The notes below the pieces were generated by a model. It searched no databases and was not told the origin of the DNA. It saw nothing but the letters and a program-made list of their open reading frames with translations. DNA of 64,000 nt, taken from the NCBI GenBank assembly GCA_031216635.1, contig CM062274.1:26420913-26484912 (forward strand), written 5' to 3'. Below, piece after piece: positions 21,036 through 39,887 of the stretch (within the stretch, counting starts at the first letter, position 1; each line of letters starts with the position of its first letter). The stretch comes from Dissostichus eleginoides. Its lineage: Eukaryota. Both the position numbers and the translations under genes were made by a program.

Positions 21036-21042
21036 TGTGTGC

Positions 21043-21076
<34 letters not shown>
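21036..21076. repeat. (GT)n microsatellite abutting the parp4 exon 8 acceptor
   Basis: tgtgtgcgtctgtgtgtgtgtgtgtgtgtgtgtgtgtag|gtt. Confidence 0.9.
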
Positions 21077-21247
21077 GTTAGCAGGGTGGAGGGCTTGTTG
21101 CTCCAGGCTCAGAGGAAGCTGAAGGAGTCAGATTATAATGAGGTTGCGTCTCTTATTGATGAGGTTTACACCCTGCTGCCGCACAAAGAGCCATGCCCCT
21201 TTCCTCCCACTGCCAAGTTCATCTCTCAGAAACTGGATCTCTGTCAG
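21077..21247 (+). CDS. parp4: parp4 exon 8
   Basis: Translation VSRVEGLLLQAQRKLKESDYNEVASLIDEVYTLLPHKEPCPFPPTAKFISQKLDLCQ (human VSKAEGILLL...LIPHKG...ADLCQ). The acceptor follows a (GT)n tract directly: gtgtgtgtag|gtt. Confidence 0.88.
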
Positions 21248-21946
21248 GTAACACTGAACTCACACACAATCACTAACACAAACACTAAGACATGTATAGG
21301 CAAGGCAAGGCAAGTTTATTTATATAGCACCTTTCAGCACATGGCAATTCAAAGTGCTTTACAAAATAAAATAAAAGACATTTAAGAAGAAATACAGCAG
21401 AAATATAGACAGCTTGAAGCAAATAATTATGAATTGTAAGGCCACATGCTGTCTTTTTCCTAAATACAGTATCCGTTGGTGTGTTCACAAACATAGCCAA
21501 AAACCCTGTTGATGAGTGTGCTGTTGATGGACTTTTACAATGACGTCATTGAAAAACATTGATGTACAGTATGTCTGGGTTGGATTTCTTTTGTATACTA
21601 ATTACATAAATGGTACTTAAGCAAGAAGTATATAATAAATACTTTTTAAAGTTAGTTTATATCATGGTGATCCTTATAAACACTGATAAGTCAGGGTGTC
21701 CGCGGGGTCTTAAAAAGTATTAAAAGTTGATAAATCAATTCAGCGAAAATTAAGGCTATTAAAAAGTATTAAAAAGTGTTAAACGGCATTTTCCAAGGTA
21801 TTAAGAAGGTCCACAGCAACGACAACATGAAACACCCTTTAATTTACTGCAACGACATGTCGGGAAACCCCCTCAAGGCGGCCCCATGCATAGCGCGCTG
21901 TCAAATGCTGCTTCTTATTTTAAGTTTCGTTGCCTTGCTCTGCTCT

Positions 21947-21962
21947 GGGGGGGGGGGGGGGG
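21947..21962. repeat. G16 homopolymer
   Basis: Sixteen consecutive G (ctctgggggggggggggggagag). Confidence 0.9.
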
Positions 21963-23812
21963 AGAGTGTGTTGGGCACCACTGATGGGGATCAGAGCTGT
22001 CCGGTCCCACATGCTAAGTGCTAGCCAGAAAGTCGTGGCGTTTAAGTCCCGACTCTCCCGATGGCCAATCCGTGCCTCCCCTGACTGCACGTTGCTGACA
22101 CACACCGCTGCAGTGCAGACTCTCTGCACGGAGGAGCCACGGAGCAGCAGCGGAGTCCGGGCGATGCTGCTCCTCCAAGGAAGAGACACACGTTCACTAA
22201 GCCAGAAAAACGATATCCGGTCACAGAGATCTGCTATTTTAAAGTAAAGTCAACACATATCAACCCTAAATATAGTCTATATTAAGAACGAGAAAAGTCT
22301 TAACATATATATCATTTTTTGTAAACATATGACACATGTGCGAGGGTGATGACGTCAGAGCATCGTCCTATGTGGCTTAGCCCCGGCCCAATTTAAACCC
22401 TGGGTATTTGTGAGGGAGCTCCTATATGGCATTACCCCGCTGAAGCTCACCAAAGTTTAATATTTCATAGTTCAAAGTTTTGTCAATTGGTTTGTTTCTT
22501 GGTCAAATACTGGTTTCTGAGGAGTTTGACTGGAATGAAAGAGCACAACGTGTGTCTACAGAAGCAACAAAGCAGCATACTGCATTAAACCTGACCTTGA
22601 CGAGAGGTTGAAGTTCATGTGGAGAGGAGGCTCTCCTACTACTTTCTAATGGTTTATTTTTCTAATAAACCTTGCATTGGGTTGGTCACACAATTCATTC
22701 TCTTGTGCTTTGTTCTATCTGAATTATGATAAGGAGTTATCACAAACTGTTTAGTTGTGCTATCTTACAATCAATACTATATATAGTAAATGTGAGGTAA
22801 AGTGTGTTGCCAATGTAACCGGTTAGAACTCGAAGTTGCGATGAGGTCTTAAAATGTATGGAAAGGGTCTTAAAAGGTCTTAAATTTGACTTCAGGATTC
22901 CTGCATATACCCTGTAAGTACACAAAGAGTTGGCAGTTAAGATAATCATTAATTCTCATAATGATCAATACAACATTATTTGTTGTGACTGTCATGTTTT
23001 GTTTTCATTTGAGCGATAACAAGTTTGAACCTTCCTGGCTTCTGAAGCTATTTAGTTCGTCATTATTTAAATGTTCCATTTAACAGAGAAGTTATACACA
23101 ATAAAATGGTTAATATTTACATTTGAATTCATTGCATTTATTATAAAGTCATTCTGTGTTTACTAAATGATGTGACCCAATTTGGTTTATTTCGTTTTAA
23201 TCGACTCCAGTGTGTAGAACATTTTCACTGTTTGGCCACATATAGTAATTGATTTACTTTACATCAAATGTAGGAGCCAAATGTAGGGTCTCTGTGTGTT
23301 TTATTCATTATATGGAATGTTTGACTCATCAGTGGTGGGTTTGTTCACTGGAGCGTGGGCTGGAGTAAGTGGTGGTTTAACCTGCGATCACCTGCTCACT
23401 TGGGTTTAGAGGTGGGGAAGCAACATTTTCTGTTCACCGCATACTTTTTACCACAATGTCTACCTCATTTCCATTTCCATCACACTTCCACTTGCACTCG
23501 CCGTCGTATTCAAAGGAATTGGTTATGGATTGTATTTCATTTTTGTTTGTGGAAGAATACATTGTCAAACAAACCCATGGAGTAGAGCGGATATGTTCGT
23601 GCACGTCATACTAGTGTTTCTTCTCATGTTTTGCCCCTTGCAGCTTGTTTTTGACTAGCTAGAGCCACAATAGCAAATGTAAAAACATGAATTGTTTAAA
23701 CCTAAACAAATATTCTGAAATACACAGCATTCATTTTCATTCATAAACACAAGTCACCAGTGTCCCCTGTGCATATTCAGGTTAACTCATCATGATATCT
23801 TCCTTTGTCTAG

Positions 23813-23964
23813 TTAATCCGAGATGTTCTCAACGTGAGTGAAATGACCCTGAGGAGCCCCATGCCCTCCTGCCTGGGGAAGTACCGCGCTCTGAGGTGCA
23901 GCATTGAGGCGGCCCCCCCCGACACCCCCGAGCTTCAGGCTGTCACCTCCCTGCTGCAGGAAAG
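23813..23964 (+). CDS. parp4: parp4 exon 9
   Basis: Translation LIRDVLNVSEMTLRSPMPSCLGKYRALRCSIEAAPPDTPELQAVTSLLQE(R) (human LIRDMVNVCETNLSKPNPPSLAKYRALRCKIE). Acceptor ctttgtctag|, donor gaaag|gtagcg. Confidence 0.88.
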
Positions 23965-24935
23965 GTAGCGTAACACCTCAGAAATACTGGAGGAAGCCAT
24001 TCAGTGATGCATAGCTTCCAAACCACAAACACATACATCTATTCACAAGAAGGACTTGCAGATATAAATTCCCACCAACTGTTATTTATGTTCCTATTTC
24101 AGGCCGTTTATAGTCACAAATCTGATAAAATATATGAGCATCATCACGTAATTTAATAGTGAGTCTCATTCGGCTGGTTCTTCCCAATTGTAGCCATTTA
24201 TTTGTATTAAAGGTCCATCTGCAGCACTGAGGAGAAACATTATAGAATGAGCGCTGGGGGTGATGCCCCTCAGACCTCCATTTTTATCAATTTCCTGTCT
24301 TACTCAAAAGATATACAGAGTTTGCTATTATTGGACCATAAATCTGTGAATAGCACTGTATCTGCTTCGGAGGGTTTGCATTTTTAGCTCAGTAAAGACA
24401 CATCTGTATTCCACATCTGGTTTAAAACTATTATTCATGGTTTTATACATCAAACTCAAGCTTTTTTGCCACGACATACCTCCTCTTATATACTTTATTC
24501 TTCACTTTCAATCAAACACTACCCAATTCATTAAGTTAGATTTATAACTGTTAAATTATAGACAACACTTTGGGCAAAATCTAAAAAAGAGCCCAGTAAA
24601 TTTCCAGAAGAAGAGAGAGAGTTTGAGGGCACAGAATGCAGTTTCAATATTAATTAGCCTTTCCTCTTCTCGAGACATAAATAATACAGATAATACGTGT
24701 TCACCAAAGGCTTTGTATGAAGTAACCGGGACCATACCATTCAGATTAATTGTAAAGGAATATAAATAATAATAGTGTGTGTACGTTTAGAGGTAAAAGC
24801 CCAAGTGTGTTTTAAACCCTAATGGGGCCAGTAGTGTCCATCCATAAACACCTACAAATATGTTTTTGATACATAAATGTTTGTTTCCGTTGAGTTTGGG
24901 CTCTCACTTCCCATGTTCCTATCTGTTCTTTGCAG

Positions 24936-25067
24936 GAAGATGCAGATCAAACAGGTTCTGCGTGTCAGCCGAGGAGTGGAGCTCCAGACGTTTAAGAGTG
25001 AGTTTGGGAACGTGAGGCCCCTGCTGCACTCCTCCAGCCCCAGCAACTTTGTTGGAGTCCTGTCTCG
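24936..25067 (+). CDS. parp4: parp4 exon 10 (start of PARP catalytic domain)
   Basis: Translation KMQIKQVLRVSRGVELQTFKSEFGNVRPLLHSSSPSNFVGVLSR (human ...LSKLGNVRPLLHGSPVQNIVGILCRG). The donor ctcg|gtgagc runs straight into a (CA)n tract. Confidence 0.88.
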
Positions 25068-25070
25068 GTG

Positions 25071-25144
<74 letters not shown>
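25068..25144. repeat. (CA)n microsatellite starting inside the parp4 exon 10 donor
   Basis: ctcg|gtgagcacacacacaca... about 36 units. ORFs 24852..25145 and 24919..25143 are repeat-translation artifacts. Confidence 0.95.
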
Positions 25145-25145
<1 letters not shown>

Positions 25146-25409
25146 CTCTCTCCAGTACCTTTTGTATTTGTTAATCCTTCTGCTTGCGCTCCTACTTTGA
25201 AAAACATTAATGCCATGTAATGTTGATCATCTGTTTATACACGTTTGTGTTGTTCAAAACGTCCTCTGAATCCATGAATCCTTAATAACAGTTGATGAAA
25301 CTGTTTGTTAACAAAAAATAATACTATCTTCAAGTTCATCACAATCAGAGCTTCCTTCCGCTCTGTGATTGCTAACCTTCAAAGAACAGGATGAAAATCA
25401 ACTCTGAAT

Positions 25410-25411
<2 letters not shown>

Positions 25412-25456
<45 letters not shown>
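25412..25456. repeat. (CA)n microsatellite
   Basis: tcacacacacacac...acacgcgc. Confidence 0.9.
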
Positions 25457-26008
25457 GCATCCTGAGATTTATCTGTCAATTGTTGTTGGATAATCCCAGG
25501 TTTTCTTGCAAGGACACTGATAGAGATCATTTCTGAGACGAAAAAGTACTTGTTGATTTTTTAAATCCAGACTGACTTCTGTACGGAGGGTGTACCACCA
25601 AGAAAACATGATATACTGTTCTGACTTGAAATTAAAAAAAGGTTTACTTTTCCTGGGCTCTTTGGCTCTACATTTAATTAAAGGCAGTTTTGATGGATTT
25701 AGGGATAAATGAAGCTCATAGATCATAGTCTATGCTGTGTGTAACGTGAGTGTTATAGTTCCTTTGTGCAACCAGTTCAAATTGGATTCTGATGTTGGTT
25801 CCTTTTAAAGAATAATGCGAACAACTCCAAACAAGCAGTTCATCTGAATTGAGCGCTTAGACTCGCAGTGGAGCGTAGCTTTAGTAATGTGATATATTTG
25901 ATGATATTGTAATGCAGACAGGTACAGTTTAGTGAAGGTCTTCAAATGGACAACTAAGACATTTTATTTGGATTTTTTTTACTTTAACAATGTTTAACCT
26001 CTCTTTAG

Positions 26009-26107
26009 TGGTCTGCTGCCGCCCCGTGTCGGAGTGGAGCATCATGGGATTGAGAGAACAGACGCGGGTAATCTGGGCAGTGGAATCTATTTTAGTGATG
26101 ACCTGAA
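26009..26107 (+). CDS. parp4: parp4 exon 11 (PARP catalytic)
   Basis: Translation GLLPPRVGVEHHGIERTDAGNLGSGIYFSDDL (human GLLLPKVVEDRGVQRTDVGNLGSGIYFSDSL). Donor cctgaa|gtaagt. Confidence 0.9.
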
Positions 26108-26850
26108 GTAAGTGGAACATCTGAAATCAAGTTTGTTATGAAATATAAATCCTACTTCTATATACTACTCTTGAATTGCCTAAAACATTACCGAATGTAA
26201 TGAAACGATTGCGTCTATGAGAATTCATTGTATCTAAAACAGAGGTGTCCAAACTTTTTTCACCGAGGGCCACATACAGAAAAACATACGAAGGGCTGGG
26301 CCGCTCATTAGAGGTATATTACCTCGTAAGTTCAGTTATAAATAAGCAAAATCAATCAAATGTAGGTAAATGAAGCTTGTGAGTGTTGGCAGCTCATCCC
26401 TTAAAACAGAAGATTGATTATAATAAGGAGAAATAGAAGGGTGTATTTCATGCTTGTTATGTAAATAAGTCATTGGGCTTTTTCTTAACAACTAAGATAT
26501 GTTAGAAAATGTTTCCAACTTTAATTGACTGAATCCATTGAAAAGTGGTCTTATTAACACATGAAAACTACTGTGTAGTATATTTTTACATTTATCTTTA
26601 AGAAGTACAATACAAGACAAGCACAAGTTTCATTTGTGGACCATATTCCATTATACTTTTTTAATTTGCTGAGGGCCGATTCAAAATGGTCCGCGGGCCG
26701 CATTTGGCCCCCGGGACGTAGTTTGGACACCCCTGATCTAAAAGATGCTTTTCTAATGAGTCTTTGATCCTCATTTCATCCTATGGGGAACCAGATGGCA
26801 ACAACACACTCATCTGTAGTGAGACTGTTTTCCACTCTCCTTATCCACAG

Positions 26851-27034
26851 CACCAGTTTGAAATACTCCAAGCGCAGCGAGACAGACGGCTCTCGGCTGC
26901 TGTTGGTGTGTGATGTGGCGCTGGGTCAGTGCATGGACGTCCATAAGAAAGACCTCACCCTGACCGAGGCTCCGGAGGGATACGACAGCGTGCACGGGGT
27001 CCGCCGCACCCCCAACACTCACTCTGAGTTTGTG
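26851..27034 (+). CDS. parp4: parp4 exon 12 (PARP catalytic)
   Basis: Translation TSLKYSKRSETDGSRLLLVCDVALGQCMDVHKKDLTLTEAPEGYDSVHGVRRTPNTHSEFV (human STSIKYSHPGETDGTRLLLICDVALGKCMDLHEKDFSLTEAPPGYDSVHGV). Donor gtg|gtaggt. Confidence 0.9.
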
Positions 27035-27038
27035 GTAG

Positions 27039-27492
27039 GTGTTTTCATGCTAATTGTTAAGAAAATATCACTCGTAACCGGCTTGAGCTTCAATAATCAG
27101 GATACATGTATTTATTATCCTTGCAAGAATGGAAGTAGTCATCACATACAGAGGATACAGTATGGGACAAATAGTTCCCAGAACAGTGTCCTTCAGATGC
27201 TTTATACAAGAGAGGGTGTATTCAGTCACAAGATGCAGAATACCGGTTCAAAGCAGTATACAATGTTTAGTTTAGATTAGCTAAGATCCACGTAAGCAAT
27301 GATCATGCTTGTCATATGTCTATCTCCATAGAGGCTGAATCATCATGTTAATCACATAGCTGTCGTATTTCTAAAACAGTCCTGATGCTCTTCTAGGTAA
27401 TCACACATCCTGTTACGCACACAGCTACGTACGGCCTTTGTTATCATGCGCTACTCTGATATTGGAAGAGTACATTCAGTATTTTCCCAACA
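27039..27492 (+). mobile_element. MITE family C copy 1 (~450 bp, TIR GTGTT(A/G)GGAAAATA)
   Basis: Begins 4 bp after the exon-12 donor. About 90% identical to the reverse complement of 33477-33899. Confidence 0.65.
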
Positions 27493-28061
27493 CTAATGTA
27501 CATGAAATTAAAGCCTGTTTCTGCAGCTAAAATAGATTTTATTTCTTTATTTTCAAGACTGTGATACAGTTTATCAAATTAGATTTTAAGATGCTGAGTG
27601 AAATAAACAAAGACTGACTGTTTTGCACTATCAAAGCTTGTATTAAGAATCTTAGGAGATAAATGTGTATATGATTGTATAGATGTGTGTGCAAGTACGT
27701 AGTATGTATTGTTTGTCTGTTCATTATTGTAACAAAAACGAAAAACAACTAAAAGGATTTCAAATGTACTTTTGAATTATATATCATGTTTTCTACATAA
27801 TCTCCCTGAAAGAAAAAGTAAAACATATTTTTGGTGATTGTGGTTATAAATGTTATTTAGTGCTGTTGGATTAGAAGTTTTTGACCAAAGTTTCAAATGT
27901 TTTTGAAAAGATAACATATTTCTTTATTTTTAACCATATTCTTTGATATATTCTATAGAGATTTTAATAATTGTTATATACAAATAATTTCAAAGCTTTA
28001 AATAATCTTTACTTCTAAGTCTGTGTACACTGTAACATGTATACTTGTACTTGTGCTCCAG

Positions 28062-28224
28062 GACGATGAGTACGTGGTGTACAGTCCTGATCAGGTGAAA
28101 CTGAAGTTTGTGGTTCAGTTCAGCGTCGAGGGAGACGCACCGAAGGAGTTCAGTCCAAACATCAACATCTGCGCTGAGCCCTCTCCGGACCGAGATGAGA
28201 AGATAACTGAGAAACCTGACAATG
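28062..28224 (+). CDS. parp4: parp4 exon 13 (end of PARP catalytic)
   Basis: Translation DDEYVVYSPDQVKLKFVVQFSVEGDAPKEFSPNINICAEPSPDRDEKITEKPDN (human DDEFVVYKTNQVKMKYIIKFS). Donor aatg|gtatac. Confidence 0.88.
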
Positions 28225-28616
28225 GTATACTTCTCCTGAGGTCCAGCACTTTGAATATCTGATCTGATATACACACCCATATTGTTTTGAGGTGTATGTC
28301 ATGTTTTATTTCAGTTGAGGGATGATGAAAAAAAGTCTTGCTTCTTCCAGCTCCTAAAGACATTTTAAAACCACTTTGCTAATATTATATTGGTATTTGG
28401 GAACAACACAACTTTAATAAAGTAAAATCCCCCAATCCACTTAAATTAGGCAGCGTTTTACTTCAGACAGTAGGAAAGCTTTTCTCCCAAGATTAATGGA
28501 CAGGTCAGATTGGGAATGGAAATAAAGAGATCCACAGTGTTTTGCCATTGAAAGGATCAATGTTGTCATTACACTGCAATCAAACAAACATTGTGTGTGT
28601 CTTGGTTTGTGTGTAG

Positions 28617-28759
28617 ATAAGGAGCTCACGTTGGATGAAATTGAAATCTGTACTAACCCTCTGGACGACATGAAGTCCGGACTGATGGACAGCTCAGGTC
28701 AGCAGCTCCCTCTGCAGGCCGTCCACGTGAAGTGCAAATTGATGGATCTGCTCTCTCAG
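28617..28759 (+). CDS. parp4: parp4 exon 14 (VIT domain start)
   Basis: Translation DKELTLDEIEICTNPLDDMKSGLMDSSGQQLPLQAVHVKCKLMDLLSQ (human ...GNLVPLEDVHIKGRIIDTVAQ). Acceptor gtgtag|, donor ctcag|gtgaaa. Confidence 0.85.
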
Positions 28760-28964
28760 GTGAAAACAGACCAACTCACTCAGATTTTTTGTTCAGATAG
28801 ATGATCTATTGGTTGATTTGAATTAAACCTCGTAAAATGCATCAGACTACCATAGGAGAATATATCTTATTCTCATTGCTAAATGTACTGGATCTAAAAA
28901 AACACTGTTATACAAGTATCTAATCCGTAATTAAACTCAATTGTTCCTTCTGTCCTCTTTTCAG

Positions 28965-30047: not shown

Positions 30048-30560
30048 TTAAAGGTCACCTATTATGCAAAATCCACTTTTTCATGTCTCTTCTACATCAA
30101 CATGTGTCCCCTCTGTGTAAAGAGATCCTGAAAGTTTCAGGAAAAAAGATTCTCTCACTTTTTGTGCTGATCCATTTATATAAAAACCTGTCTGAAAATG
30201 AGCTGATCAGATTTGTGCCACTTTATGATGTCATAACGATGTTTTGGGTTGTGTAACCATTAGCCAATCACCAACCAGGTACCCCCCCCCATCCTTATCA
30301 CCTGAATCTCCTCCTAGAGCACCATTGTGTTCTTTTTAACCAAATATCTCTCAGAGGGGCGTGGGGAGGGGCTCCTTATTTTCATCTAAAGTAACAGACA
30401 GAGAATCAGCACTTTGGAAACAGGGCTGAAACAGAGGGGATTATGGGATGCTGCAATGATCTGTTTGGTGTTTGGAGCCAAACACTTCAGAGACAAGTTT
30501 TGTATACATCTGAGACCTATAATATATCGATGAAAAAGACTATAATAGGGGACCTTTAAA
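30048..30560 (+). mobile_element. MITE family B copy (TIR TTAAAGGTCACCTATTATGCAAAA)
   Basis: Starts ttaaaggtcacctattatgcaaaa and ends tataataggggacctttaaa, giving ~24-bp terminal inverted repeats. About 513 bp. Lies in parp4 intron 16. Confidence 0.7.
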
Positions 30561-32205: not shown

Positions 32206-32243
32206 GTCACTGTGGAGAAGGTGTGTGTGAAAGATGAGGCGAG
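32206..32243 (+). CDS. parp4: parp4 exon 18 (short)
   Basis: Translation VTVEKVCVKDEAR (human DTVEKICIKEIGT). Acceptor gatcaacag|, donor gcgag|gtgagc. Phase links exons 17 and 19. Confidence 0.75.
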
Positions 32244-32555
32244 GTGAGCTATGTTTTGTATTTTGACTATTTTAATGCACTTTAGCTTAATTGTAATCCT
32301 TCAATTTGACACCACCTTTTGTTCTGAATGTTTGTGAAAAAGCACACTGTCCATTAACTTGTTTATCCACAAATATTGCATCAATGACACTTTTGTCCGT
32401 TAATAATTTGTCATTATCTCAGTTAAACATTTGGATAGAGAAATAAGTTGTGTTTTTCATCGTTGCCTCTTTGTCCTTCTTACTGTGTTTTTGTAATGTA
32501 GACTTTAATGTACATCACATTAAAGGCTTTGCTCAATCTGTTGTTTATTTCTCAG

Positions 32556-32637
32556 AGAGTTCACCCTGGACATGTCGATTGAGATGCCGAATGAGATCAC
32601 AAAGCTGCGTTGCATCAGCCATAAAGTCAAGATCAAG
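32556..32637 (+). CDS. parp4: parp4 exon 19
   Basis: Translation EFTLDMSIEMPNEITKLRCISHKVKIK (human SFSLTMSIEMPYVIEFIFSDTHELKQK). Donor atcaag|gtaatc. Confidence 0.85.
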
Positions 32638-32827
32638 GTAATCTGTGTTTGACATTTGTTTGGGATTTTTTAGACATTGTTACATGGCTGTCAGTTATCG
32701 TCTCTGTCTTACTGTGTTCCTCCACACATCAAGAAATAACAAATATTGTACACTTCTATAGAAATAGCATGTATTCTCTTGACTTGATGCGTTTGGAAAT
32801 GCAGACAAAAGTGTACCAAAAATATGT

Positions 32828-33070
32828 AAAATGCCTTAAAGGTGGGGTAGGTAAGTTTGAGAAACCGGCTCGAGATACACTTTTTGTTATATTCCATGGA
32901 ATGCTCTTAACATCCCGATAGCAATGAATATCTTAAGTGCTTTGACAAAAAATCGTTCGTGTGTGTTGGAGGAGGGGCTCTGTAAGGAAGTGGCAGATTT
33001 TTTCAGGTTGTGTATTTTCAAATTCTAGCGCACTCGAGCTGGTTTCTCCAAAATTACCTACCCCACCTTT
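32828..33070 (+). mobile_element. MITE family A copy (TIR AAAGGTGGGGTAGGTAA..., internally deleted)
   Basis: aaaggtggggtaggtaagtttgagaaaccggctcgag ... ctcgagctggtttctccaaaattacctaccccaccttt. Long palindromic termini. Confidence 0.65.
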
Positions 33071-33476
33071 AATGCTAAATTGTTTGGCATTTTGATCATG
33101 TAGCCGTACATTGCACAACCTGGATAATGAAAAGTAAAATGTCTACGTATGTAATTCTACTATTGGGGTTGTCATTTCTACCTCACTCTAGTGCTGAAAT
33201 GATGCCAGAGTTTTTTATAATTAACAATATCTTGATTTAGCTAAATAGTTTTCATCTCCAAATCTCCCTGGCACAGCTTCAATAAAATACCTTGTTTTTT
33301 TATCATACCAAAATTAGTTTTGTCTTTATCTGCTAATCAGACTGCATAAATGTACAGTTTTTGTATCGGATTACGCAGATTTGTCATTATGTTGGAGGTA
33401 TCTTACACTAAATATTTGACTCGTCGTTACTATGTTTGATAGTATAGTCCATAATAAAATAAAATGATTTCTTTAT

Positions 33477-33899
33477 GTTGGGATAATACTGAATGTACTC
33501 TTCCAATATCAGAGTACACATGATAACAAAGGCCCTACGTAACTGTGTACATGACAGGATGTATGATTACCTAGAAGAGCATCAGGACTGTTTTAGGCAT
33601 ATGACAGCTATGTGATTAACATGATGATTCAGCTTCTATGGAGATAGACATATGACAAGCATGATCATTTCTGACGTGGAGCTAATCTGAACTAAACATT
33701 GAATACTGCTTTCTATTCCTCCATCTTGTGACTGTGTAACTCCCTCTCTTGTATATAAGCATGTGAAGGACACTTTTCAGGGGAACTATTTGTCCCAAAT
33801 GCTCTGTATGTGATGACTACTTCCATTATTACAAGGATAATTAATACATGTATCCTGACATTGAAGCTCAAGCCGGTGACGAGTGATATTTTCCTAACA
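33477..33899 (-). mobile_element. MITE family C copy 2 (inverted orientation)
   Basis: gttgggataatactgaatgtactcttccaatatcagag ... gtgatattttcctaacac is the reverse complement of copy 1. Lies in parp4 intron 19, ~60 bp upstream of exon 20. Confidence 0.65.
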
Positions 33900-33960
33900 C
33901 TTTATGATCTTCATGTGTATCCTTTTTTCTTTTCTGTGTGTTTGTGTGATATTCCCACAG

Positions 33961-34098
33961 AAAACCGACTGTAAGGCAGTGTTGAGCGTGCTGCCAGGAG
34001 AGGTCATGGGTCCAGTTGGCTTCATGCTGTCCGTCACTCTGTCAGAGGTCCACCTGCCCAGGATGTGGGTGGAGAAACACCCCGACAAGGACAGCCAG
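33961..34098 (+). CDS. parp4: parp4 exon 20
   Basis: Translation KTDCKAVLSVLPGEVMGPVGFMLSVTLSEVHLPRMWVEKHPDKDSQ (human RTDCKAVISTMEGSS...LPRMWVEKHPEKESE). Confidence 0.9.
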
Positions 34099-34124
34099 GT
34101 CTGCATGTCTGTCTGCATGCATTC

Positions 34125-34705
34125 CTCTCTTTATCTCTCTCTGGAGCCAAGGCAGAACGTATACAAGTTAGCGCTGAGCTTCAGTCTGCAACGTTCAAAA
34201 CAACAGATAGAGCCAGACATCTAGGTGTCGTCATGGACTCTGACCTGAGTTTCAACAGTCACATTAAAACAGTTACTAAATCAGCCTACTATCACCTAAA
34301 GAACATATTAGGATTAAAAGACTAATGTCACAGCAGGATTTGGAAAAACTTGTCCATGCTTTTATCTTCAGCAGACTTGACTACTGTAATGGTGTCTTCA
34401 CAGGTCTCACTAAAAAATCCATTAGAAAGCTGCAGCTGATTCAGAACGCCGCTGCTCGAGTCCTCACTAACACTAAGAAAGTACTTTTAAATCCAGGCTG
34501 AAGACTTTTCTCTTTGCCGCTCTTTTAATTGAACTATTCATATCTTAAACTGCACTGTAACTTTTATTCATGTATTTTGTCTTTTAATGTTTATTTTATT
34601 ATCTTTGCTTTTTAATGACTGTTTTTAAATGCCATTTTCTTAATGTCTTTCATTTTGTAAAGCACTTTGAATTGCCTTGTGTTGAAAGGTGCTATATAAA
34701 TAAAC
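34125..34705 (+). mobile_element. Non-LTR retrotransposon 3' fragment (teleost-common repeat)
   Basis: Translated remnant ...DSDLSFNSHIKTVTKSAYYHLKNI...LIHAFI.SRLDYCN...KLQLIQNAAARVLT, then tail gtaaagcactttgaattgccttgtgttgaaaggtgctatataaataaa. The same tail occurs at 21285-21365 (-), 51440-51840 (+), 30985-31085 and 4225-4290. Confidence 0.55.
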
Positions 34706-34774
34706 TTGTCTTGCCTTGCCTCTCTTCATCTCCCTCTGTCTCTTTGTTTAAACATCTCTCACTTTCTCCTCTAG

Positions 34775-34964
34775 GCCAGCATGTTAGTTTTCTATCCAGA
34801 CTTTGAAGTGAACTCCGAGCGTGAATCTGATGAACTCGTCTTGCTGCTCGACACGTCGGAGTCCATGAAGGGAGAGTCTCTCATCTTGGCCCAGAAAATC
34901 GCCCTGAAGGTCCTCAGACAAATCGATAACAAAACCAAACTCAATGTCATTTTATTTGGCACAG
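34775..34964 (+). CDS. parp4: parp4 exon 21 (vWA domain start)
   Basis: Translation ASMLVFYPDFEVNSERESDELVLLLDTSESMKGESLILAQKIALKVLRQIDNKTKLNVILFGT (human ACMLVFQPDLDV...VIICLDCSSSMEGVTFLQAKQIALHAL...KVNIIQFGTG). Contains the vWA MIDAS-like D-x-S-x-S motif. Coordinates cross-checked against ORF 34781..35002. Confidence 0.9.
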
Positions 34965-35391
34965 GTCAGTTTGAATGTGTATTCATTTTGGGTAAAAATT
35001 GATAAAGCAATACGGGGAAGTACAAGTTAGAAAGGTGAGACAATGTTAAACTATCTCACCATTAATGAGTAAGCTAAAAGTAATTTGACTGAATCAAATA
35101 AATGAAATAAAAGATGAATAAGTTATGTAATAAAACTGCAAGGCACAAGCCATGACACTGCTTTGGTTTTGATAATATGTTATTTACTCTTACATTCATT
35201 AGTGCTTCAGCACTTCCTCTCACGTCATCCAACATTTCAAGTACAAGAAAACTGCTTTTAGGGACTTTCCGTCTGAAGTCAACTCTTATTTTACATAAAA
35301 GTCTCCTCTTATTCCAAACTCAGTTCAACCAATAGATTATAATTTTAGCGAAAGTATAATGTGTTTTTTTTTCTGTGTGTTTGTCTGTCAG

Positions 35392-35462
35392 ATCACAAAG
35401 ACGCTTTCCTCACAGCACGGCCGCTCTTTGAAGCTCAACCGGCAGCAGAAACATTTATCAAG
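35392..35462 (+). CDS. parp4: parp4 exon 22 (vWA)
   Basis: Translation DHKDAFLTARPLFEAQPAAETFIK. Acceptor gtctgtcag|, donor atcaag|gtgagt. Phase links exons 21 and 23. Confidence 0.75.
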
Positions 35463-36154
35463 GTGAGTCTTTGGTTCATTAATATAACATAGAATGAAGG
35501 TTCATTCTATATATAGCTATATAACATTTTAATCTATAAAATGTATCTCACCTCTCTGTGTAATGTACTGTAGTATCGACTAAACCACCTTAAACGACTT
35601 ACCAATCACTGTACTGTAATAACATATTTTCAGTATACTACACTTGAGTTTTCGGCCATGACAGGAACTTGGTCCTGTGACACATGGACTCGATAAACTT
35701 GACTATTCCTTACAATATATTTCTCATATCTCTAAAATAAAACAGGAAACGATATTGAGAAGTATTGCCTTGGCAAAATTGGTCAGTGTAAGATGAATTT
35801 CTTATTTTAGTTTACGGCTTTCTATAACGACATACAGAATAATACTATATTAGATTTGAAAAGTAAACTAGTCATTGAAGAGACTTAAAAGTAATTCCAG
35901 AACATACTGGAAGGAACTGTTTTAGCTGTACACAAAACGTGTGCTGTTGTTTTTATCAAACAGGTCCGTTTTACACAGAACTTATTTTTTACAATATTCC
36001 AAAAGCCTATGGAGAAATCCCATTGCTTTTTTGTCGGGGGAACCCATGCTCAGCTTATTTCCAAGTCGGCCTACAAAAATACGTCATCACTGTACCACTC
36101 TATAAACCCGTTTCTGATTGAGATTCTCATTCCTCCTCCTCTCCCTGCCACCAG

Positions 36155-36342
36155 CTCTCCTCTCCAGTAGGGGGCAGCACTGAGCTGTGGCGGCCCCTGC
36201 GAGCTCTCAGCCTGCTGCCTCCGTCCCGCGGCGTCAGGAACCTGCTGCTGCTGTCGGACGGACACATCCAGAACGCAGAGCTCACCCTGCAGCTGCTCAG
36301 AGACAACGCCGAGCACAGCCGCCTCTTCACCTGCGGCCTCAG
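36155..36342 (+). CDS. parp4: parp4 exon 23 (vWA)
   Basis: Translation LSSPVGGSTELWRPLRALSLLPPSRGVRNLLLLSDGHIQNAELTLQLLRDNAEHSRLFTCGL (human ...GNTDFWKTLRYLSLLYPARGSRNILLVSDGHLQDESLTLQLVKRSRPHTRLFACGI). Confidence 0.9.
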
Positions 36343-36981
36343 GTCTCAAAGGGTCATAGGTCACAGGGGAGGGGGGTTTTCTCAGAAAGGAGAATACATT
36401 CCTGCGTTTTAAAGGTCCCCTATTATACTGTTTTTCATCAATATATTATAGGTCTCAGATATAAAATCTTATTTTACCTGCCCCTTCTTAAAAAAAATAA
36501 CAACAAACCAAATGAAATAACCATACGAACGTAAAATAAAAGCAACTATTCTTTCAGTCACAGTTGCTTACAAATACTGAAACATAAAACCAGAACACAA
36601 TCAAAAGTAAACTTCAGACTGTCTGATTACGCTTTCTTTATACATTTTCTTAAACATATTGATCTAGTTATATGATTGGAAATATGTCCTGACACCAGAG
36701 ACACAAAGACATAATGGCTGAGCTGTCTAACAACATAAGAATGAAAACAAAGTAAACACAAGTCTGAATGAAAATAGAACAGAAATGGGGGAATGTCCCT
36801 ACTAAGTGTGTAAGGAATCTCACTCTCCCTCATAACCACGACCGATACGGGTTGTAACTCTCTCAGCTTTAATGACAAAACTTGTTGTATTCAGCCTTGC
36901 CTTGCTTTGCACACTGAGGTTCTTTTTCACAACAGACATTTTAAAGTTGCTGTTTTTTTTATGTTTGTTCGGTCATTTCAG

Positions 36982-37081
36982 CCCGACAGCCAATCGGCAC
37001 ATGCTCAGAGCCCTGGCTCAGGCCGGGGGCGGAGCCTTTGAGTTCTTCGACACAAAAACCAAACATAACTGGACAGATAAG
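36982..37081 (+). CDS. parp4: parp4 exon 24 (vWA)
   Basis: Translation SPTANRHMLRALAQAGGGAFEFFDTKTKHNWTDK (human GSTANRHVLRILSQCGAGVFEYFNAKSKHSWRKQ). Confidence 0.9.
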
Positions 37082-37565
37082 GTAGGACTGACTAGCTTTA
37101 CATTTTATTATAACACATTATTGGACTTTTTTACCCAATGCAAAACATGAATTTGAATCTGATGATCTCCATATGTGTTGAAAGTATCCACATGTTTCCC
37201 AAGAGGACCTAACACGTGTAATGTTGTAAAATGGGCCGACAGACTTTCACATTGAGAAAGAAATTGTTTTATTCATGTGTTAACCCTTTGTTAACTCTTC
37301 ACCCTTCAGTAAAGGGAACGGAGAACTTCCACATCAACACATTGTGCAATATAAATACCATTACCATCATTACAAAACACTCGCTGCTATATAACATGTG
37401 CAATATTATTATTATTAACAATGTGCTATGATAAACGTGCAATTAGGGTTGCACTACTAATTACTGGTTATATTGACATAAATTATGTGACCGTCTATGT
37501 TTCATGTAGATATTTAATTGCTCTTTATAAATAAAGTCTTATCTTATCTTTGATTTTGGCGGAAG

Positions 37566-37736
37566 GTTGCATCTCAGCTGCATCGTATGGCGTCTCCCAG
37601 CTGCAGTTCAGTGTCAGTGAAGTGGCAGCAGTTCAACCCGACAGCGCCCCCTCCTGTTCAAGCTCCCAAGCAGCTCCACGCTCTGTTCAATGATTGCCAC
37701 ACCCTGGTGTACGGCTTTGTGCCGCACTGCACTCAG
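37566..37736 (+). CDS. parp4: parp4 exon 25
   Basis: Translation (VASQ)LHRMASPSCSSVSVKWQQFNPTAPPPVQAPKQLHALFNDCHTLVYGFVPHCTQ (human ...RLCSPSCHSVSVKWQQLNPDVPEALQAPAQVPSLFLNDRLLVYGFIPHCTQ). An alternative in-frame acceptor lies at 37578 (atctcag|ctg). Confidence 0.85.
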
Positions 37737-37743
37737 GTACACA

Positions 37744-38258
37744 CTTAAAGGTCCCCTATTATACTGTTTTTCATCAATATATTATAGGTCTCAGATATAT
37801 ACAAAACATGTCTCTGAAGTGTTTGGCTCCAAACACCAAACAGATCATTGCAGCATCCCATAATCCCCTCTGTTTCAGCCCTGTTTCAAAAGTGCTGATT
37901 CTCTGTCTGTGTCTTTAGATGAAAATAAGGAGCCCCTCCCCACGCCCCTCTGAGAGATATTTGGTTAAAAAGAACACAATGGTGCTCTAGGAGGAGATTC
38001 AGGTGATAAGGTGGGGGGGGGGGTTACCTTGGTTGGTGATTGGCTAATGGTTTCACAAGCAAAAAATCATTATGACATCATAAAGTGGCCAAAATCTGAT
38101 CAGTTCATTTTCAGACATATTTTTATATAAATAGATCAGGACAAAAAGAGAGATAATCTTTTTTCCTGAAACTTTCAGAGTCTCTTTACACAGAGGGGAC
38201 ACATGTTGATGTAGAAGAGACATGAAAAAGTGCATTTTGCATAATAGGTGACCTTTAA
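37744..38258 (-). mobile_element. MITE family B copy, inverted relative to 30048-30560
   Basis: Starts ttaaaggtcccctattatactg and ends cattttgcataataggtgacctttaa. Internal sequence is co-linear with copy A in reverse complement (ORFs 30020..30256 and 38053..38382 translate alike). Lies in parp4 intron 25. Partial copies at 36408-36468 and 49268-49430. Related termini at 6766-6900 and 57345-57480. Confidence 0.7.
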
Positions 38259-39195
38259 TATACACGACTGGAAACAGCTTACTTTGCTTAGCCCAGGGGT
38301 CTGCAACCTTTTTGACCAAAAGAGCCATTTTGCTCCCTTTTCCAACAATTCTTTTTGTCTGGAGCCGCAAAACATATTTCATAGCTTGATAGCTTATAAA
38401 GTTGGATTTATTGTTATATCACAGACAAAAACTACATTTTTTTTTGCATTTATTATTTATTACATTATATAAAACTCTTAACCTCTAATAAGAAACAAAG
38501 AACTCCTATAAGGAGAATTAAAAAAAATACACAGGCCTACTTTAAAATAAAATAAACACAGCACTTGGGGAGTCCTCTGCACATTTGAAGGAAAGAAAAT
38601 AGAATTAAAATTGACCCACTTTGAAATAAATAAAACATAGCTGCACCCTAAAAAGAGTTAACTGATTGAATTATGACTGAAGATCGTCAGCTGTCTTCCT
38701 CTTCCGTTTTTCTCCTTGATACGTAAAGGCTGCAGCACCTTTGATGACTTCTCTCCACATATCAAACATACCGGTAAACCAGCATCGTGCCGGGGGTCAG
38801 GTTATTCACCTGTAAGAAAAGCCGCTGGCGCGGGACCGTAGCAGGATATGACGCATATTTTAGTTGACCTAATTAAAACCGTTTTGTTTTTTATTTATGT
38901 GTCACAGTATCACCTCAAAATACAAGATACGAAACATTTTCAGCCATGCAACAAAATGTAAATAGTCCTACAAATACTTTTATTTCCTACTTATTTTTGT
39001 CTAAGCTCAAGGGAGCCAGAGCAGAGGGCTTAAAGAGCCGCATGCAGCTCGAGAGCCGCAGGTAGCCGACCCCTGGCTTAGCCTATAAAATATTAAAAAC
39101 TTGATATGAACACAATAGGGCAAAAATATTTTAAAAGCTTCAATATTATCCAGCATTTTTCCTTGATAAATGACTCAAATAATGACTTATCACAG

Positions 39196-39276
39196 GCCAC
39201 CCTGCTCGGAAATCTCAGCGGTCAGGAGCTCCAAACCATGGTTTCAACCAGTGAGCTGCAGAAGACCAGAGGCACA
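39196..39276 (+). CDS. parp4: parp4 exon 26
   Basis: Translation ATLLGNLSGQELQTMVSTSELQKTRGT (human ATLCALIQEKEFRTMVSTTELQKTTGT). The donor ggcaca|gtaaga runs straight into (CA)n. Confidence 0.9.
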
Positions 39277-39281
39277 GTAAG

Positions 39282-39332
<51 letters not shown>
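39277..39332. repeat. (CA)n microsatellite starting at the parp4 exon 26 donor
   Basis: ggcaca|gtaagaacacacacacaca... Confidence 0.95.
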
Positions 39333-39334
<2 letters not shown>

Positions 39335-39616
39335 CACTCTCCAGTCCCTTTTGTATTTGTTAATCCTTCTGCTTGCACTTCTACTTTGAAAAACATTAAT
39401 GCCATGTAACGTTGATCGTCTGTTTATACACGTTTTGTGTTGTTCAAAACGTCCTCTGAATCCATGAATCCTGAATAACAGTTGATGAAACTGTTTGTTA
39501 ACAAAAAATTATACCATCTTACATAATTGCACTCATCTTAACTAGTTGACCCTGCAGACACTGATGCAGGTTGTTGTTGATTATAGATTATGATGTGTAT
39601 TAATGTGTGTGTTCAG

Positions 39617-39695
39617 TTTCTTCACAAGCTCACTGCGAGGGCCCTCATCAGGGATTACGAAGACGGAAGCCTGGATACCAATGAAGCCGAACATG

Positions 39696-39697
<2 letters not shown>
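39617..39697 (+). CDS. parp4: parp4 exon 27
   Basis: Translation FLHKLTARALIRDYEDGSLDTNEAEHE (human MIHKLAARALIRDYEDGILHENETSHE). The donor catgag|gtgtgt is the first repeat unit of a ~190 bp (GT)n tract. Confidence 0.9.
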
Positions 39698-39775
<78 letters not shown>

Positions 39776-39809
39776 TGTGTGTGTGTGTGTGGTGGTGTGT
39801 GTGTGTGTG

Positions 39810-39887
<78 letters not shown>
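39698..39887. repeat. Long compound (GT)n microsatellite starting at the parp4 exon 27 donor
   Basis: catgag|gtgtgtgtgt... about 190 bp with a few ggt/gtt interruptions. ORFs 39590-39981 on both strands are artifacts. Confidence 0.95.

What the first reader, a model, noticed from the sequence alone, without database searches (positions are those of the whole stretch)
21036..39887. Four parp4 splice sites are physically fused to dinucleotide microsatellites
Exon 8 acceptor: (GT)n...gtgtag|GTT. Exon 10 donor: ctcg|GTGAGCACACACA(CA)n. Exon 26 donor: ggcaca|GTAAGAACACACA(CA)n. Exon 27 donor: catgag|GTGTGTGT(GT)~95. In the last case the donor GT is itself the first repeat unit. Intronic (GT)n/(CA)n tracts next to splice sites are known length-dependent splicing modulators, for example the CFTR exon 9 TG tract and eNOS intron 13 CA repeats. 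Four such sites in one gene is unusual, and these tracts are likely length-polymorphic.
Basis: partly seen in the sequence, partly recalled or inferred. Interest (0 to 1): 0.55.

Follow-up and report, generated by a model that had tools for sequence, protein, structure and literature searches.

The report
Fish parp4 splice sites abutting AC/GT repeats
Four splice sites of a fish parp4 gene really do sit directly against long (GT)n or (CA)n repeats, far more often than chance allows, but this is a local example of a pattern already described across bony-fish genomes and not a special device of this gene.

Summary
The + strand carries a parp4 orthologue. Its spliced exons align without gaps to human PARP4 across all four boundaries. 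(GT)20 ends 2 nt before the exon 8 acceptor. (CA)36 starts at +6 of intron 10, and (AC)28 at +7 of intron 26. The exon 27 donor GT is the first unit of a ~95-unit GT tract. Under uniform placement in introns, 4 of 5 tracts this close to a splice site has P about 1e-6.

Teleosts as a group carry AC repeats just after 5' splice sites and GT repeats just before 3' splice sites (Lin et al. 2016). Three of the four sites follow that polarity, and so do 9 of 10 AC/GT-bearing splice sites in this gene. Related fishes carry short AC or GT runs at three of the four sites, so these tracts are lineage-specific expansions of old seeds.

The tracts are not independent. Intron 10 is a mosaic, (CA)36-A-B-(CA)21. 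Segment A is a 95% copy of the CA flank of intron 26. Segment B is an inverted 92% copy of another CA/TG flank 12 kb upstream.

Only intron 26 meets the definition of an AC-GT bridging intron. (AC)28 and (GU)95 also flank exon 27, and folding predicts that they loop it out. No transcript or population data were available.

The parts
20755..20892 (+). parp4 exon 7, with donor GAT|gtaagc
   Evidence: tblastn hit. Gapless alignment SLND|VSRVEG to human PARP4.
21035..21074 (+). (GT)20 tract ending 2 nt before the exon 8 acceptor AG. Pure (TG)14 lies at 21046-21074. It stands in place of a polypyrimidine tract.
   Evidence: The longest pyrimidine run in the last 40 nt is 3.
21077..21247 (+). parp4 exon 8 (171 nt)
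21252..21292 (+). Imperfect AC-rich tract just after the exon 8 donor (gtaaCACtgaactCACACACAatCACtaaCACaaaCAC). It is predicted to pair with the GU tract upstream of exon 8.
   Evidence: Also AC-rich in relatives L004, L005, L008, L011 and L012.
24936..25067 (+). parp4 exon 10 (PARP catalytic domain), with donor TCG|gtgagc
25073..25144 (+). Pure (CA)36 starting at +6 of intron 10
25145..25330 (+). Segment A, a 95% copy of intron 26 positions 39337-39520
   Evidence: (D9, D16). Its motif TTAATAACAGTTGATGAAACTGTTTGTTAAC is orthologous to intron 26 of relatives (z = 11).
25331..25411 (+). Segment B, a 92% inverted copy of 12794-12871
25412..25454 (+). Pure (CA)21 in mid-intron 10. I read it as the right half of the split ancestral CA tract. 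Native intron 10 sequence (GCATCCTGAG...) resumes just after it.
26009..26107 (+). parp4 exon 11, with an ordinary polypyrimidine acceptor
12722..12871 (+). (TG)35 plus a 78-nt flank upstream of parp4. This is the proposed template of segment B.
39196..39276 (+). parp4 exon 26, with donor ACA|gtaaga
39283..39337 (+). (AC)28 starting at +7 of intron 26. It is absent at this site in four related fishes.
39337..39520 (+). Native intron 26 sequence that served as the template for segment A
39604..39612 (+). Short (TG)4.5 run 4 nt before the exon 27 acceptor. It pairs with the first AC units when intron 26 is folded alone. Related fishes carry 2-9 units here.
39617..39697 (+). parp4 exon 27 (81 nt, phase 0). 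Skipping it would be in frame.
39698..39887 (+). (GT)~95 tract whose first GT is the exon 27 donor. It makes up 190 of the 265 nt of intron 27.
   Evidence: The donor GAG|GTGTGT is shared by relatives, which carry 3-11 units.
39963..40058 (+). parp4 exon 28, with an ordinary acceptor (ttttttgtttcag)

Best explanation
These are ordinary teleost intronic AC/GT microsatellites sitting on splice sites of a parp4 orthologue. They are an instance of the known fish-wide signature: AC after the 5' splice site and GT before the 3' splice site.

**Origin (shown)**
- Short GT runs at the exon 8 acceptor and in the exon 27 donor (GAG|GTGTGT), and a short CA-rich run after the exon 10 donor, are present in related fishes.
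- These runs sit in sequence that selection on the splice sites keeps in place, so they act as permanent seeds. In this lineage they expanded to 20, ~95 and 36+21 units.
- The CA tract after the exon 26 donor is new in this lineage. It grew from gtaagaaCA(ca).

**Origin (inferred)**
- The CA tract of intron 10 was later broken and repaired. Each broken end copied the flank of another CA/TG microsatellite in cis: intron 26, 14 kb downstream, and a (TG)35 tract 12 kb upstream.
- The result is (CA)36-A-B-(CA)21.

**Effect on splicing (inferred from Lin et al. 2016, not shown here)**
- The tracts are tolerated, or mildly helpful, parts of constitutive splice-site recognition.
- GT tracts stand in for the missing polypyrimidine tracts at the exon 8 and exon 27 acceptors.
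- Intron 26 can form an AC:GU bridge between its two ends.
- The U1-binding positions of the donors are untouched, because the CA tracts begin at +6 or +7.
For: - **Boundaries and gene identity:**
- **Non-random placement:** P about 1e-6.
- **Polarity across the gene:** AC hexamers lie within 40 nt after 4 of 20 donors and before 0 of 20 acceptors. GT hexamers lie before 5 of 20 acceptors and after 1 of 20 donors.
- **Weak pyrimidine tracts:** the exon 8 and exon 27 acceptors, both GT-bearing, have a longest pyrimidine run of only 3. That is the lowest value among the 20 acceptors, shared only with exon 6, which has no GT hexamer.
- **Published basis:** PMC4691745 describes exactly this signature, its frequency (0.09-2.29% of fish introns, 10% of zebrafish genes) and poor conservation of individual instances.
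- **Relatives, exon 8 acceptor:** TG run of at least 10 (L005, L011), 10 (L008), imperfect (L012).
- **Relatives, exon 10 donor:** gtgagaacccacacacacat (L004), gtgagatcacacaaac (L005), gtgagattaaacacacacaaag (L009).
- **Relatives, exon 27 donor:** (GT)11, 7, 6 and 3+3 in L002, L003, L001 and L007.
- **Relatives, exon 26 donor:** no CA tract in four species.
- **Intron 10 mosaic:**
- **Intron 26 bridge:** an 11-bp helix in both the minimum-energy and centroid structures.
Against: - Only 1 of about 20 introns (intron 26) has the AC-5'/GT-3' pair that defines the published class.
- Introns 7 and 10 carry orphan tracts. Intron 27 has the opposite polarity (GT at a 5' splice site).
- In Lin et al.'s minigenes, a GT-rich 3' end without an AC partner spliced inaccurately. 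The intron 7 acceptor is therefore not obviously "helped" by its tract.
- Folding energies of intron 26 and intron 7 are no better than dinucleotide shuffles (z = +1.8 and +2.2).
- When intron 27 is included, (AC)28 pairs with (GU)95 instead of the intron 26 acceptor.
- No transcript data, no population data, and no genome-wide baseline for this species were available.
Confidence: 0.68

Rival explanations
1. The tracts are length-dependent regulators of alternative splicing. They would act through UG-binding proteins (TDP-43, CELF) and CA-binding proteins (hnRNP L), or through cross-exon AC:GU duplexes. In particular, (AC)28 in intron 26 and (GU)95 in intron 27 would close a loop around exon 27 and promote its in-frame skipping. 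GU20 before exon 8, paired with AC tracts after exon 8 or exon 10, could loop out or back-splice those exons.
For: - Folding of 39267-39972 puts (AC)28 into a helix of about 55 bp with the distal GU repeats. Exon 27 and both its splice sites are enclosed (-236.9 kcal/mol, z = -3.6).
- Exon 27 is 81 nt and phase 0.
- The GU tract before exon 8 pairs with the AC-rich tract after it, both in the window and in relative L008.
- Precedents exist in CFTR and eNOS (PMC2978352; Hui 2003 via PMC3833109).
- Lin et al. call the cross-exon arrangement inhibitory and largely avoided in zebrafish.
Against: - No transcript evidence of skipping or of circular RNAs.
- Lin et al. found AC-GT introns equally often in constitutive and alternative introns. 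They could not detect Dscam-like choice at loci with an AC tract followed by GT tracts in successive introns.
- Exon 27 encodes a highly conserved peptide (70% identical to human).
- The folds for exon 8 are not better than shuffles (z about -0.7 to -0.8).
- Proteins and co-transcriptional splicing may prevent long duplexes from forming.
Confidence: 0.17
2. The tracts are neutral mutational by-products with no effect on splicing. Splice-site consensus sequences (GTGTGT donors, TG-rich acceptors, gtaagaaCA) are protected seeds, and slippage in fish expands them. Proximity to splice sites would then reflect where seeds survive, not function.
For: - Tract length varies enormously between species at the same site: 3 to 95 units at the exon 27 donor, and 0 to 28 at the exon 26 donor.
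- Individual instances are poorly conserved in fish generally.
- Fish show large-step microsatellite mutations.
Against: - The strict polarity (AC only after donors, GT almost only before acceptors, 9 of 10) is not predicted by seeding alone.
- The GT-bearing exon 8 and exon 27 acceptors lack any other pyrimidine tract, yet they must be used to make a conserved protein.
- Lin et al. showed functional dependence in minigenes.
Confidence: 0.3
3. The CA tracts at the exon 10 and exon 26 donors were delivered by a transposable element that carries or targets CA repeats. Segments A and B would be parts of that element.
For: - There are two copies of A and two copies of B, each abutting a CA/TG tract.
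- Microsatellite-targeting retrotransposons exist in fish (my own knowledge, not checked here).
Against: - Segment A contains a 31-nt motif that is orthologous to intron 26 of at least three other species (27/31 identical to L007, z = 11). A is therefore native intron 26 sequence.
- There are no further copies in the 64-kb window or in about 25 kb of related-fish contigs.
- No terminal inverted repeats are seen by eye.
- No homology extends past the microsatellites or past the A|B junction.
- Searches outside the window found nothing relevant.
Confidence: 0.07
4. Assembly artefact. The long GT tract or the intron 10 mosaic would be a mis-join at microsatellites.
For: - Long dinucleotide repeats are hard to assemble.
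- Short-read contigs of relatives break at these tracts (L005 and L011 start inside the TG run).
Against: - Segments A and B differ from their sources by 5% and 8%, including indels. A mis-join would give near-identical copies.
- All flanking exons are intact and in frame.
- The exact unit count of (GT)~95 remains uncertain.
Confidence: 0.04

Closest known systems
Teleost (AC)m-(GT)n structured introns (Lin et al. 2016, Genome Res 26:12, PMC4691745; signature first noted by Yeo et al. 2004 as cited there)
   Same: [quoted passage not shown]
- The GT tract obscures the polypyrimidine tract.
- Intron 26 has both elements within 40 nt of its ends and a predicted bridging helix.
   Different: - Three of the four flagged tracts are orphans with no complementary partner at the other end of the same intron.
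- One tract (the exon 27 donor) has the reverse polarity.
- (AC)28 and (GU)95 flank an exon, which is the arrangement reported as depleted in zebrafish.
CFTR intron 8 UG(m)U(n) tract bound by TDP-43 (PMC2978352)
   Same: A UG repeat abuts a 3' splice site (here, the exon 8 acceptor) and is likely length-variable.
   Different: - No U tract follows the repeat here.
- The repeat appears to be the ancestral acceptor context in several fishes, and not a disease-associated variant.
- No skipping has been shown.
eNOS intron 13 CA repeat bound by hnRNP L (Hui et al. 2003, cited in PMC3833109; see also PMC5959245)
   Same: A variable-length intronic CA repeat lies downstream of a 5' splice site.
   Different: - Here the repeat starts at +6 or +7, directly after the U1 site.
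- Protein binding and length dependence were not tested.
Human apoA-II (GT)16 3' splice site, and poly(UG) 'pUG' tracts enriched near splice sites (as cited in PMC4691745 and in bioRxiv 10.1101/2025.04.22.650042)
   Same: A GT repeat acts as the 3' splice-site context. Tracts of at least 12 UG units could form pUG folds.
   Different: A 95-unit tract that begins with the donor GT itself is much longer than the human examples mentioned. No structural test was done.
Templated insertions at repaired double-strand breaks (MMBIR and synthesis-dependent repair; PMC8421209, PMC11724301)
   Same: The intron 10 patch consists of two copied segments joined head to head. Each was copied from a nearby locus, starting at a region of homology.
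   Different: - The homology here is a long CA/TG microsatellite, not a few bases of microhomology.
- This is a germline event fixed in an intron.

Membership tests
PARP4 (vault PARP) orthologue | Collinear, full-length-type similarity to PARP4 as opposed to other PARPs, including the PARP catalytic domain | tested here: met
   - 26 collinear tblastn HSPs between 16497 and 40246.
- Spliced exons 7-14 match PDB 11jf_P (PARP4) at E 1.7e-108, against about 1e-17 for PARP1 and PARP2.
- Exons 25-28 match PARP4 only, at E 7e-52.
- Pfam PF00644.
Teleost (AC)m-(GT)n bridging intron (Lin et al. 2016) | At least one AC-repeat hexamer within 40 nt downstream of the 5' splice site | tested here: met
   Met for introns 10 and 26, and also for introns 8 and 25. 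Not met for introns 7 and 27.
Teleost (AC)m-(GT)n bridging intron (Lin et al. 2016) | At least one GT-repeat hexamer within 40 nt upstream of the 3' splice site of the SAME intron | tested here: not met
   Intron 26 is the only intron that meets both this criterion and the AC criterion. Of the flagged introns, intron 7 has GT but no AC, intron 10 has AC but a normal pyrimidine acceptor, and intron 27 has GT at its 5' end and a normal acceptor. As a set, the four flagged sites are not four members of the class. One intron is.
Teleost (AC)m-(GT)n bridging intron (Lin et al. 2016) | [quoted passage not shown] | tested here: inconclusive
   Intron 26 folded alone gives an 11-bp bridge in both the minimum-energy and centroid structures, but z = +1.8. 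When intron 27 is included, the AC tract pairs with (GU)95 instead.
Teleost (AC)m-(GT)n bridging intron (Lin et al. 2016) | Weak or absent polypyrimidine tract at the GT-bearing acceptor | tested here: met
   The exon 8 and exon 27 acceptors have a longest pyrimidine run of 3 and 52% pyrimidines. The run of 3 is the lowest value among the 20 acceptors, shared only with exon 6.
Teleost (AC)m-(GT)n bridging intron (Lin et al. 2016) | Splicing independent of U2AF2 and dependent on the AC:GU pairing | not testable with these tools
   This needs minigene or in vitro splicing assays.
CFTR-type UG-repeat silencer bound by TDP-43 | A UG repeat followed by a short U tract at the 3' splice site, with length-dependent exon skipping | tested here: inconclusive
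   The UG repeat at the acceptor is present, but no U tract follows it. Skipping and length dependence cannot be tested here.
eNOS-type CA-repeat enhancer bound by hnRNP L | A polymorphic intronic CA repeat whose length tunes use of the upstream 5' splice site | not testable with these tools
   The CA repeats are present at +6 and +7. Polymorphism, protein binding and effect were not testable.
Transposable element carrying or targeting CA repeats (for segments A and B) | Many dispersed copies with defined termini, unrelated to the orthologous sequence of the host locus | tested here: not met
   There are only the copies next to microsatellites within 14 kb of each other. Segment A is orthologous to intron 26 of relatives. 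No hits were found elsewhere. The genome of this species itself could not be searched.

The most novel reading that the evidence does not exclude
The AC and GU tracts of this gene may form cross-exon duplexes, which is the arrangement reported as selected against in zebrafish. The candidate pairings are (AC)28 with (GU)~95 around exon 27, and (GU)20 with the AC tracts after exon 8 or exon 10. If they form, in-frame skipping of exon 27, or back-splicing of exons 8-10, would depend on hypermutable repeat lengths. parp4 isoform output would then be a heritable, fast-evolving quantitative trait. A related possibility is that break repair between microsatellites in cis (the intron 10 mosaic) is a general route by which splice-site-adjacent repeats and their flanks spread between introns.
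Probability: 0.12. Interest if true: 0.55.

Novelty: new member of a known kind. Interest (0 to 1): 0.27.

Why it matters
If the main reading is right, this locus adds little new biology. It is a clear, well-resolved example of the teleost habit of placing AC and GT repeats on splice sites. It adds useful evolutionary detail: conserved short seeds inside the splice-site context expand in one lineage.

Two side results could be worth a small follow-up.
- Exon 27 is flanked by a perfectly complementary AC/GU pair. This gives a natural test of whether the "avoided" cross-exon arrangement really impairs exon inclusion.
- The intron 10 mosaic is a tidy germline example of a microsatellite break repaired with two ectopic microsatellite flanks. 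It shows that splice-site-adjacent repeats in one gene need not be independent events.

Tried and rejected
1. **Full-length fish PARP4 proteins.** Searching the large protein collection returned only short read-through ORFs from fish genomic contigs, plus one spliced fragment, P0010. I mapped exons with human PARP4 recalled from memory. The PDB copy of PARP4 then validated this.
2. **A and B native to intron 10.** By eye they resembled intron 10 of relative L004. A shuffle test rejected this (z about 1). Only 25480-25562 and 25911-25939 are detectably orthologous to L004.
3. **Transposable-element origin of A and B.** I found no extra copies in the window or in the relatives' contigs. A metagenome scan with an A motif gave 0 hits. 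A scan with a B motif gave one hit inside a 530-aa ORF on a 28%-GC contig that looks microbial, so I treat it as a coincidence. A protein-word search with ORFs of A and B found nothing.
4. **Intron-bridging AC:GU pairs for introns 7, 10 and 27.** These introns lack the partner tract. The intron 7 fold is unremarkable.
5. **Assembly artefact.** Rejected for the mosaic because the copies differ by 5-8%.
6. **Rfam scan of 12-44 kb.** It found only a LINE 3' element.
7. **Automatic junction refinement.** The script failed where tblastn HSPs ran on into introns (junctions 7/8 and 8/9). I set those by hand and confirmed them by the open frame and the gapless alignment.

Full report
**What the window is**

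The sequence is AT-rich eukaryotic DNA with GC of about 0.38. It contains many microsatellites and a UnaL2-type fish LINE 3' element. Fragments of the same gene recovered from public read assemblies are genomic contigs of other fishes. I therefore treat it as a teleost. The species was not determined.

On the + strand, 26 collinear tblastn matches to human PARP4 run from 16497 to 40246. The query was recalled from memory, so I checked it independently:
- Exons 7-14, joined at the splice sites given below, form one open 394-aa frame. It aligns end to end with PARP4 in the PDB (11jf_P, residues 248-638, E 1.7e-108). PARP1 and PARP2 score only about 1e-17.
- Exons 25-28 form a 143-aa frame that aligns without gaps to PARP4 residues 1041-1181 (E 7e-52).
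- Pfam finds the PARP catalytic domain.

**Checking the observation**

All four sites read as described.

| Site | Sequence at the junction | Boundary | Tract |
|---|---|---|---|
| Exon 8 acceptor | cgtc(tg)14tag\|GTTAGC | exon 8 starts at 21077 | (GT)20 by TRF, 21035-21074 |
| Exon 10 donor | tctcg\|gtgagCA(CA)n | exon 10 ends at 25067 | pure (CA)36, 25073-25144 |
| Exon 26 donor | ggcaca\|gtaagaACAC... | exon 26 ends at 39276 | (AC)28, 39283-39337 |
| Exon 27 donor | catgag\|GTGTGT... | exon 27 ends at 39697 | 190 nt, 39698-39887; pure blocks of 35, 11, 8 and 38 units |

The junction peptides are collinear with human PARP4 without indels: SLND|VSRVEG, VLSR|GLLPP, KTRGT|FLHKL and AEHE|GKKAEL. 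The boundaries are therefore well supported even without transcripts from this species. A spliced fragment from another vertebrate (P0010) has the same order of exons 24-28. The exon numbers are plausible from my partial model but are not verified.

**Is it more than chance?**

The gene has five AC/GT tracts of at least 14 units. Four lie within 0-6 nt of a splice site. The fifth, (CA)21 at 25412-25454, is in the middle of intron 10. Uniform placement in the 13 well-defined introns gives P(at least 4 of 5) = 1.3e-6. Counting only three independent origins gives 1.2e-5. The association is real.

**The rest of the gene shows the same rule**

I surveyed 20 acceptors and 20 donors.

| Hexamer type, within 40 nt | After donors | Before acceptors |
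|---|---|---|
| AC-repeat hexamers | 4 of 20 (exons 8, 10, 25, 26) | 0 of 20 |
| GT-repeat hexamers | 1 of 20 (exon 27) | 5 of 20 (exons 8, 14, 17, 20, 27 by my count) |

Nine of the ten sites follow the rule "AC after 5' splice site, GT before 3' splice site". The exon 8 and exon 27 acceptors, both GT-bearing, have a longest pyrimidine run of only 3. That is the lowest value of all, shared only with the exon 6 acceptor.

**What is known**

This is the signature described by Lin et al. 2016 (PMC4691745). Their main points are:
- AC and GT hexamers are the motifs whose position around splice sites differs most between fish and human.
- AC peaks just downstream of 5' splice sites, and GT just upstream of 3' splice sites.
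- The two co-occur across introns and pair into a bridging hairpin that makes U2AF2 dispensable.
- 0.09-2.29% of fish introns and 10% of zebrafish genes are affected.
- Constitutive and alternative introns are affected about equally.
- Individual instances are poorly conserved because the repeats mutate fast.
- The cross-exon arrangement is "largely avoided".

Even in humans, UG tracts of at least 12 units are reported to be enriched near splice sites (bioRxiv 10.1101/2025.04.22.650042). The CFTR and eNOS cases are real precedents (PMC2978352; Hui 2003 via PMC3833109), but they are more distant comparators.

**How far this locus fits the published class**

By the published definition (an AC hexamer within 40 nt of the 5' splice site and a GT hexamer within 40 nt of the 3' splice site of the same intron), only intron 26 qualifies.
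- Folded alone, intron 26 forms an 11-bp helix between its first AC units and the UGUGUGUGU just before the acceptor. The helix appears in both the minimum-energy and centroid structures. The total energy is not better than shuffles.
- Intron 7 (184 nt) has GT at its 3' end but no AC.
- Intron 10 (941 nt) has AC at its 5' end and an ordinary pyrimidine acceptor.
- Intron 27 (265 nt, of which 190 are the repeat) has GT at its 5' end and an ordinary acceptor.

**Evolution of the four tracts**

Orthologous contigs from other fishes (exon identity 73-97%) show the following.

| Site | State in related fishes |
|---|---|
| Exon 8 acceptor | TG run of at least 10 in L005 and L011 (contigs start inside the repeat), 10 in L008, imperfect in L012, 2 in L004 and L009 |
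| Exon 10 donor | CA-rich in five relatives (gtgagaacccacacacacat, gtgagatcacacaaac, gtgagattaaacacacacaaag, gtgagatcac(a/g)caaacacgcacaaa); absent in two |
| Exon 27 donor | always GAG\|GTGTGT..., with 11, 7, 6 and 3+3 units |
| Exon 26 donor | no tract in four species (gtaagaacattc, gtaagaacacatg, gtgagtccacacg) |

Three of the four tracts are thus expansions of short runs that belong to the ancestral splice-site context. The fourth is new in this lineage. The exon 27 donor hexamer GTGTGT is itself a three-unit seed that selection cannot remove. This explains why "the donor GT is the first repeat unit".

**The tracts are not independent: intron 10 is a mosaic**

- Positions 25148-25330 (segment A), directly after (CA)36, are 95% identical to 39337-39520, directly after (AC)28 of intron 26.
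- Positions 25331-25409 (segment B), directly before (CA)21, are 92% identical to the reverse complement of 12794-12871, directly after a (TG)35 tract upstream of the gene.
- Homology stops at the microsatellites on the outer sides and at the A|B junction on the inner sides.
- Segment A contains TTAATAACAGTTGATGAAACTGTTTGTTAAC, which matches intron 26 of relative L007 at 27 of 31 positions (z = 11, 0 of 500 shuffles). The motif also occurs in intron 26 of L001 and L002. A is therefore native to intron 26 and was copied into intron 10.
- After (CA)21, native intron 10 sequence (GCATCCTGAG...) resumes. In relative L005 that motif lies only 23 nt from the donor, just after the short CA run.

The simplest model, which is an inference, is a break inside the ancestral (CA)n of intron 10.
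- The top-strand 3' end invaded the (CA)n of intron 26 and copied 183 nt.
- The bottom-strand (TG)n 3' end invaded the (TG)35 at 12.7 kb and copied 79 nt.
- The two new ends were then joined.

This model accounts for the orientation of both copies, for the shared breakpoint, and for the two CA tracts flanking the patch. A transposable-element origin found no support. The genome of this species could not be searched. The 5-8% divergence of the copies excludes an assembly mis-join.

**Cross-exon pairing**

(AC)28 and (GU)~95 are perfectly complementary and lie only 360 nt apart, on either side of exon 27. Folding 39267-39972 pairs the whole AC tract with distal GU units in a helix of about 55 bp that encloses exon 27 and both its splice sites (-236.9 kcal/mol, z = -3.6). 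Exon 27 is 81 nt in phase 0, so skipping would remove 27 conserved residues in frame.

The GU tract before exon 8 is likewise predicted to pair with the AC-rich tract after exon 8, both here and in relative L008. Those energies are not better than shuffles.

These are the arrangements that Lin et al. describe as avoided. Whether they affect splicing here is unknown.

**Verdict**

It is a new example of a known teleost feature, with informative evolutionary detail, and not a new kind of element. The regulatory interpretation remains possible but is unsupported by any data available here.

Noticed in passing
window 25068-25454, 39277-39520, 12722-12871: Intron 10 carries a two-part patch, (CA)36-A-B-(CA)21. 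The patch was copied from the flanks of two other CA/TG microsatellites in cis (intron 26, and a (TG)35 tract upstream of the gene). It looks like a break in a microsatellite repaired with two ectopic templates.
   Followed up: yes
window 30048-30559 and 37745-38258: Two adjacent inverted-repeat arms (199 and 278 nt, 93-96% complementary) lie in intron 16, about 110 nt before the exon 17 acceptor, and in intron 25, starting 9 nt after the exon 25 donor. This pair flanks exons 17-25. It is a much stronger candidate than the microsatellites for intron pairing or back-splicing. The arms are probably two copies of one interspersed repeat.
   Followed up: no
window 27270-27448 and 33519-33697: Another inverted pair (179 nt, 91% complementary) lies inside parp4 introns.
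   Followed up: no
window 21248-21292; L004, L005, L008, L011, L012: The exon 8 donor is followed by an AC-rich tract in the window and in five relatives ((CA)6.5 in L008). Exon 8 is thus flanked by GT upstream and AC downstream in several species. This is a conserved cross-exon arrangement, of the kind reported as depleted in zebrafish.
   Followed up: partly
window 28590-28616, 33930-33950, 37737-37744: Further short GT runs lie before the acceptors at 28617 and 33961. An ACACAC run lies at +3 of the donor at 37736. All follow the same polarity rule.
   Followed up: partly
window 19972-20022 (-): Rfam match to the UnaL2 LINE 3' element (57 bits, E 6e-9) in parp4 intron 6. This is consistent with a fish genome.
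   Followed up: no
window 40310-40831 and 41686-43284: The C-terminal part of the gene is repetitive. There is a 162-nt tandem duplication (94% identical) that includes an acceptor-like site. There is also an array with periods of 12, 21 and 33 nt that encodes acidic D/E/S-rich repeats. Further on, a unit of about 800 nt is duplicated in tandem (85-93% identical).
   Followed up: no
window 49764-50640 and 61234-62075; 54626-54711 and 63437-63522: Segments repeated at a spacing of about 11.4 kb (78-93% identical) lie downstream of parp4. One repeated piece reads like a C-type lectin domain (..[16 protein letters not shown].., by eye). This suggests tandemly duplicated lectin-like genes.
   Followed up: no
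window 8222-8683 (-): This ORF ends with a THAP-zinc-finger-like motif (..HGKRCIAAGCGN...FLFPKDE.., by eye). It probably belongs to a neighbouring gene on the minus strand.
   Followed up: no
L005 and L011, position 1: Short-read contigs of two related fishes begin inside the TG repeat at the exon 8 acceptor. The tract is probably long in those species as well, and their true lengths are unknown.
   Followed up: no
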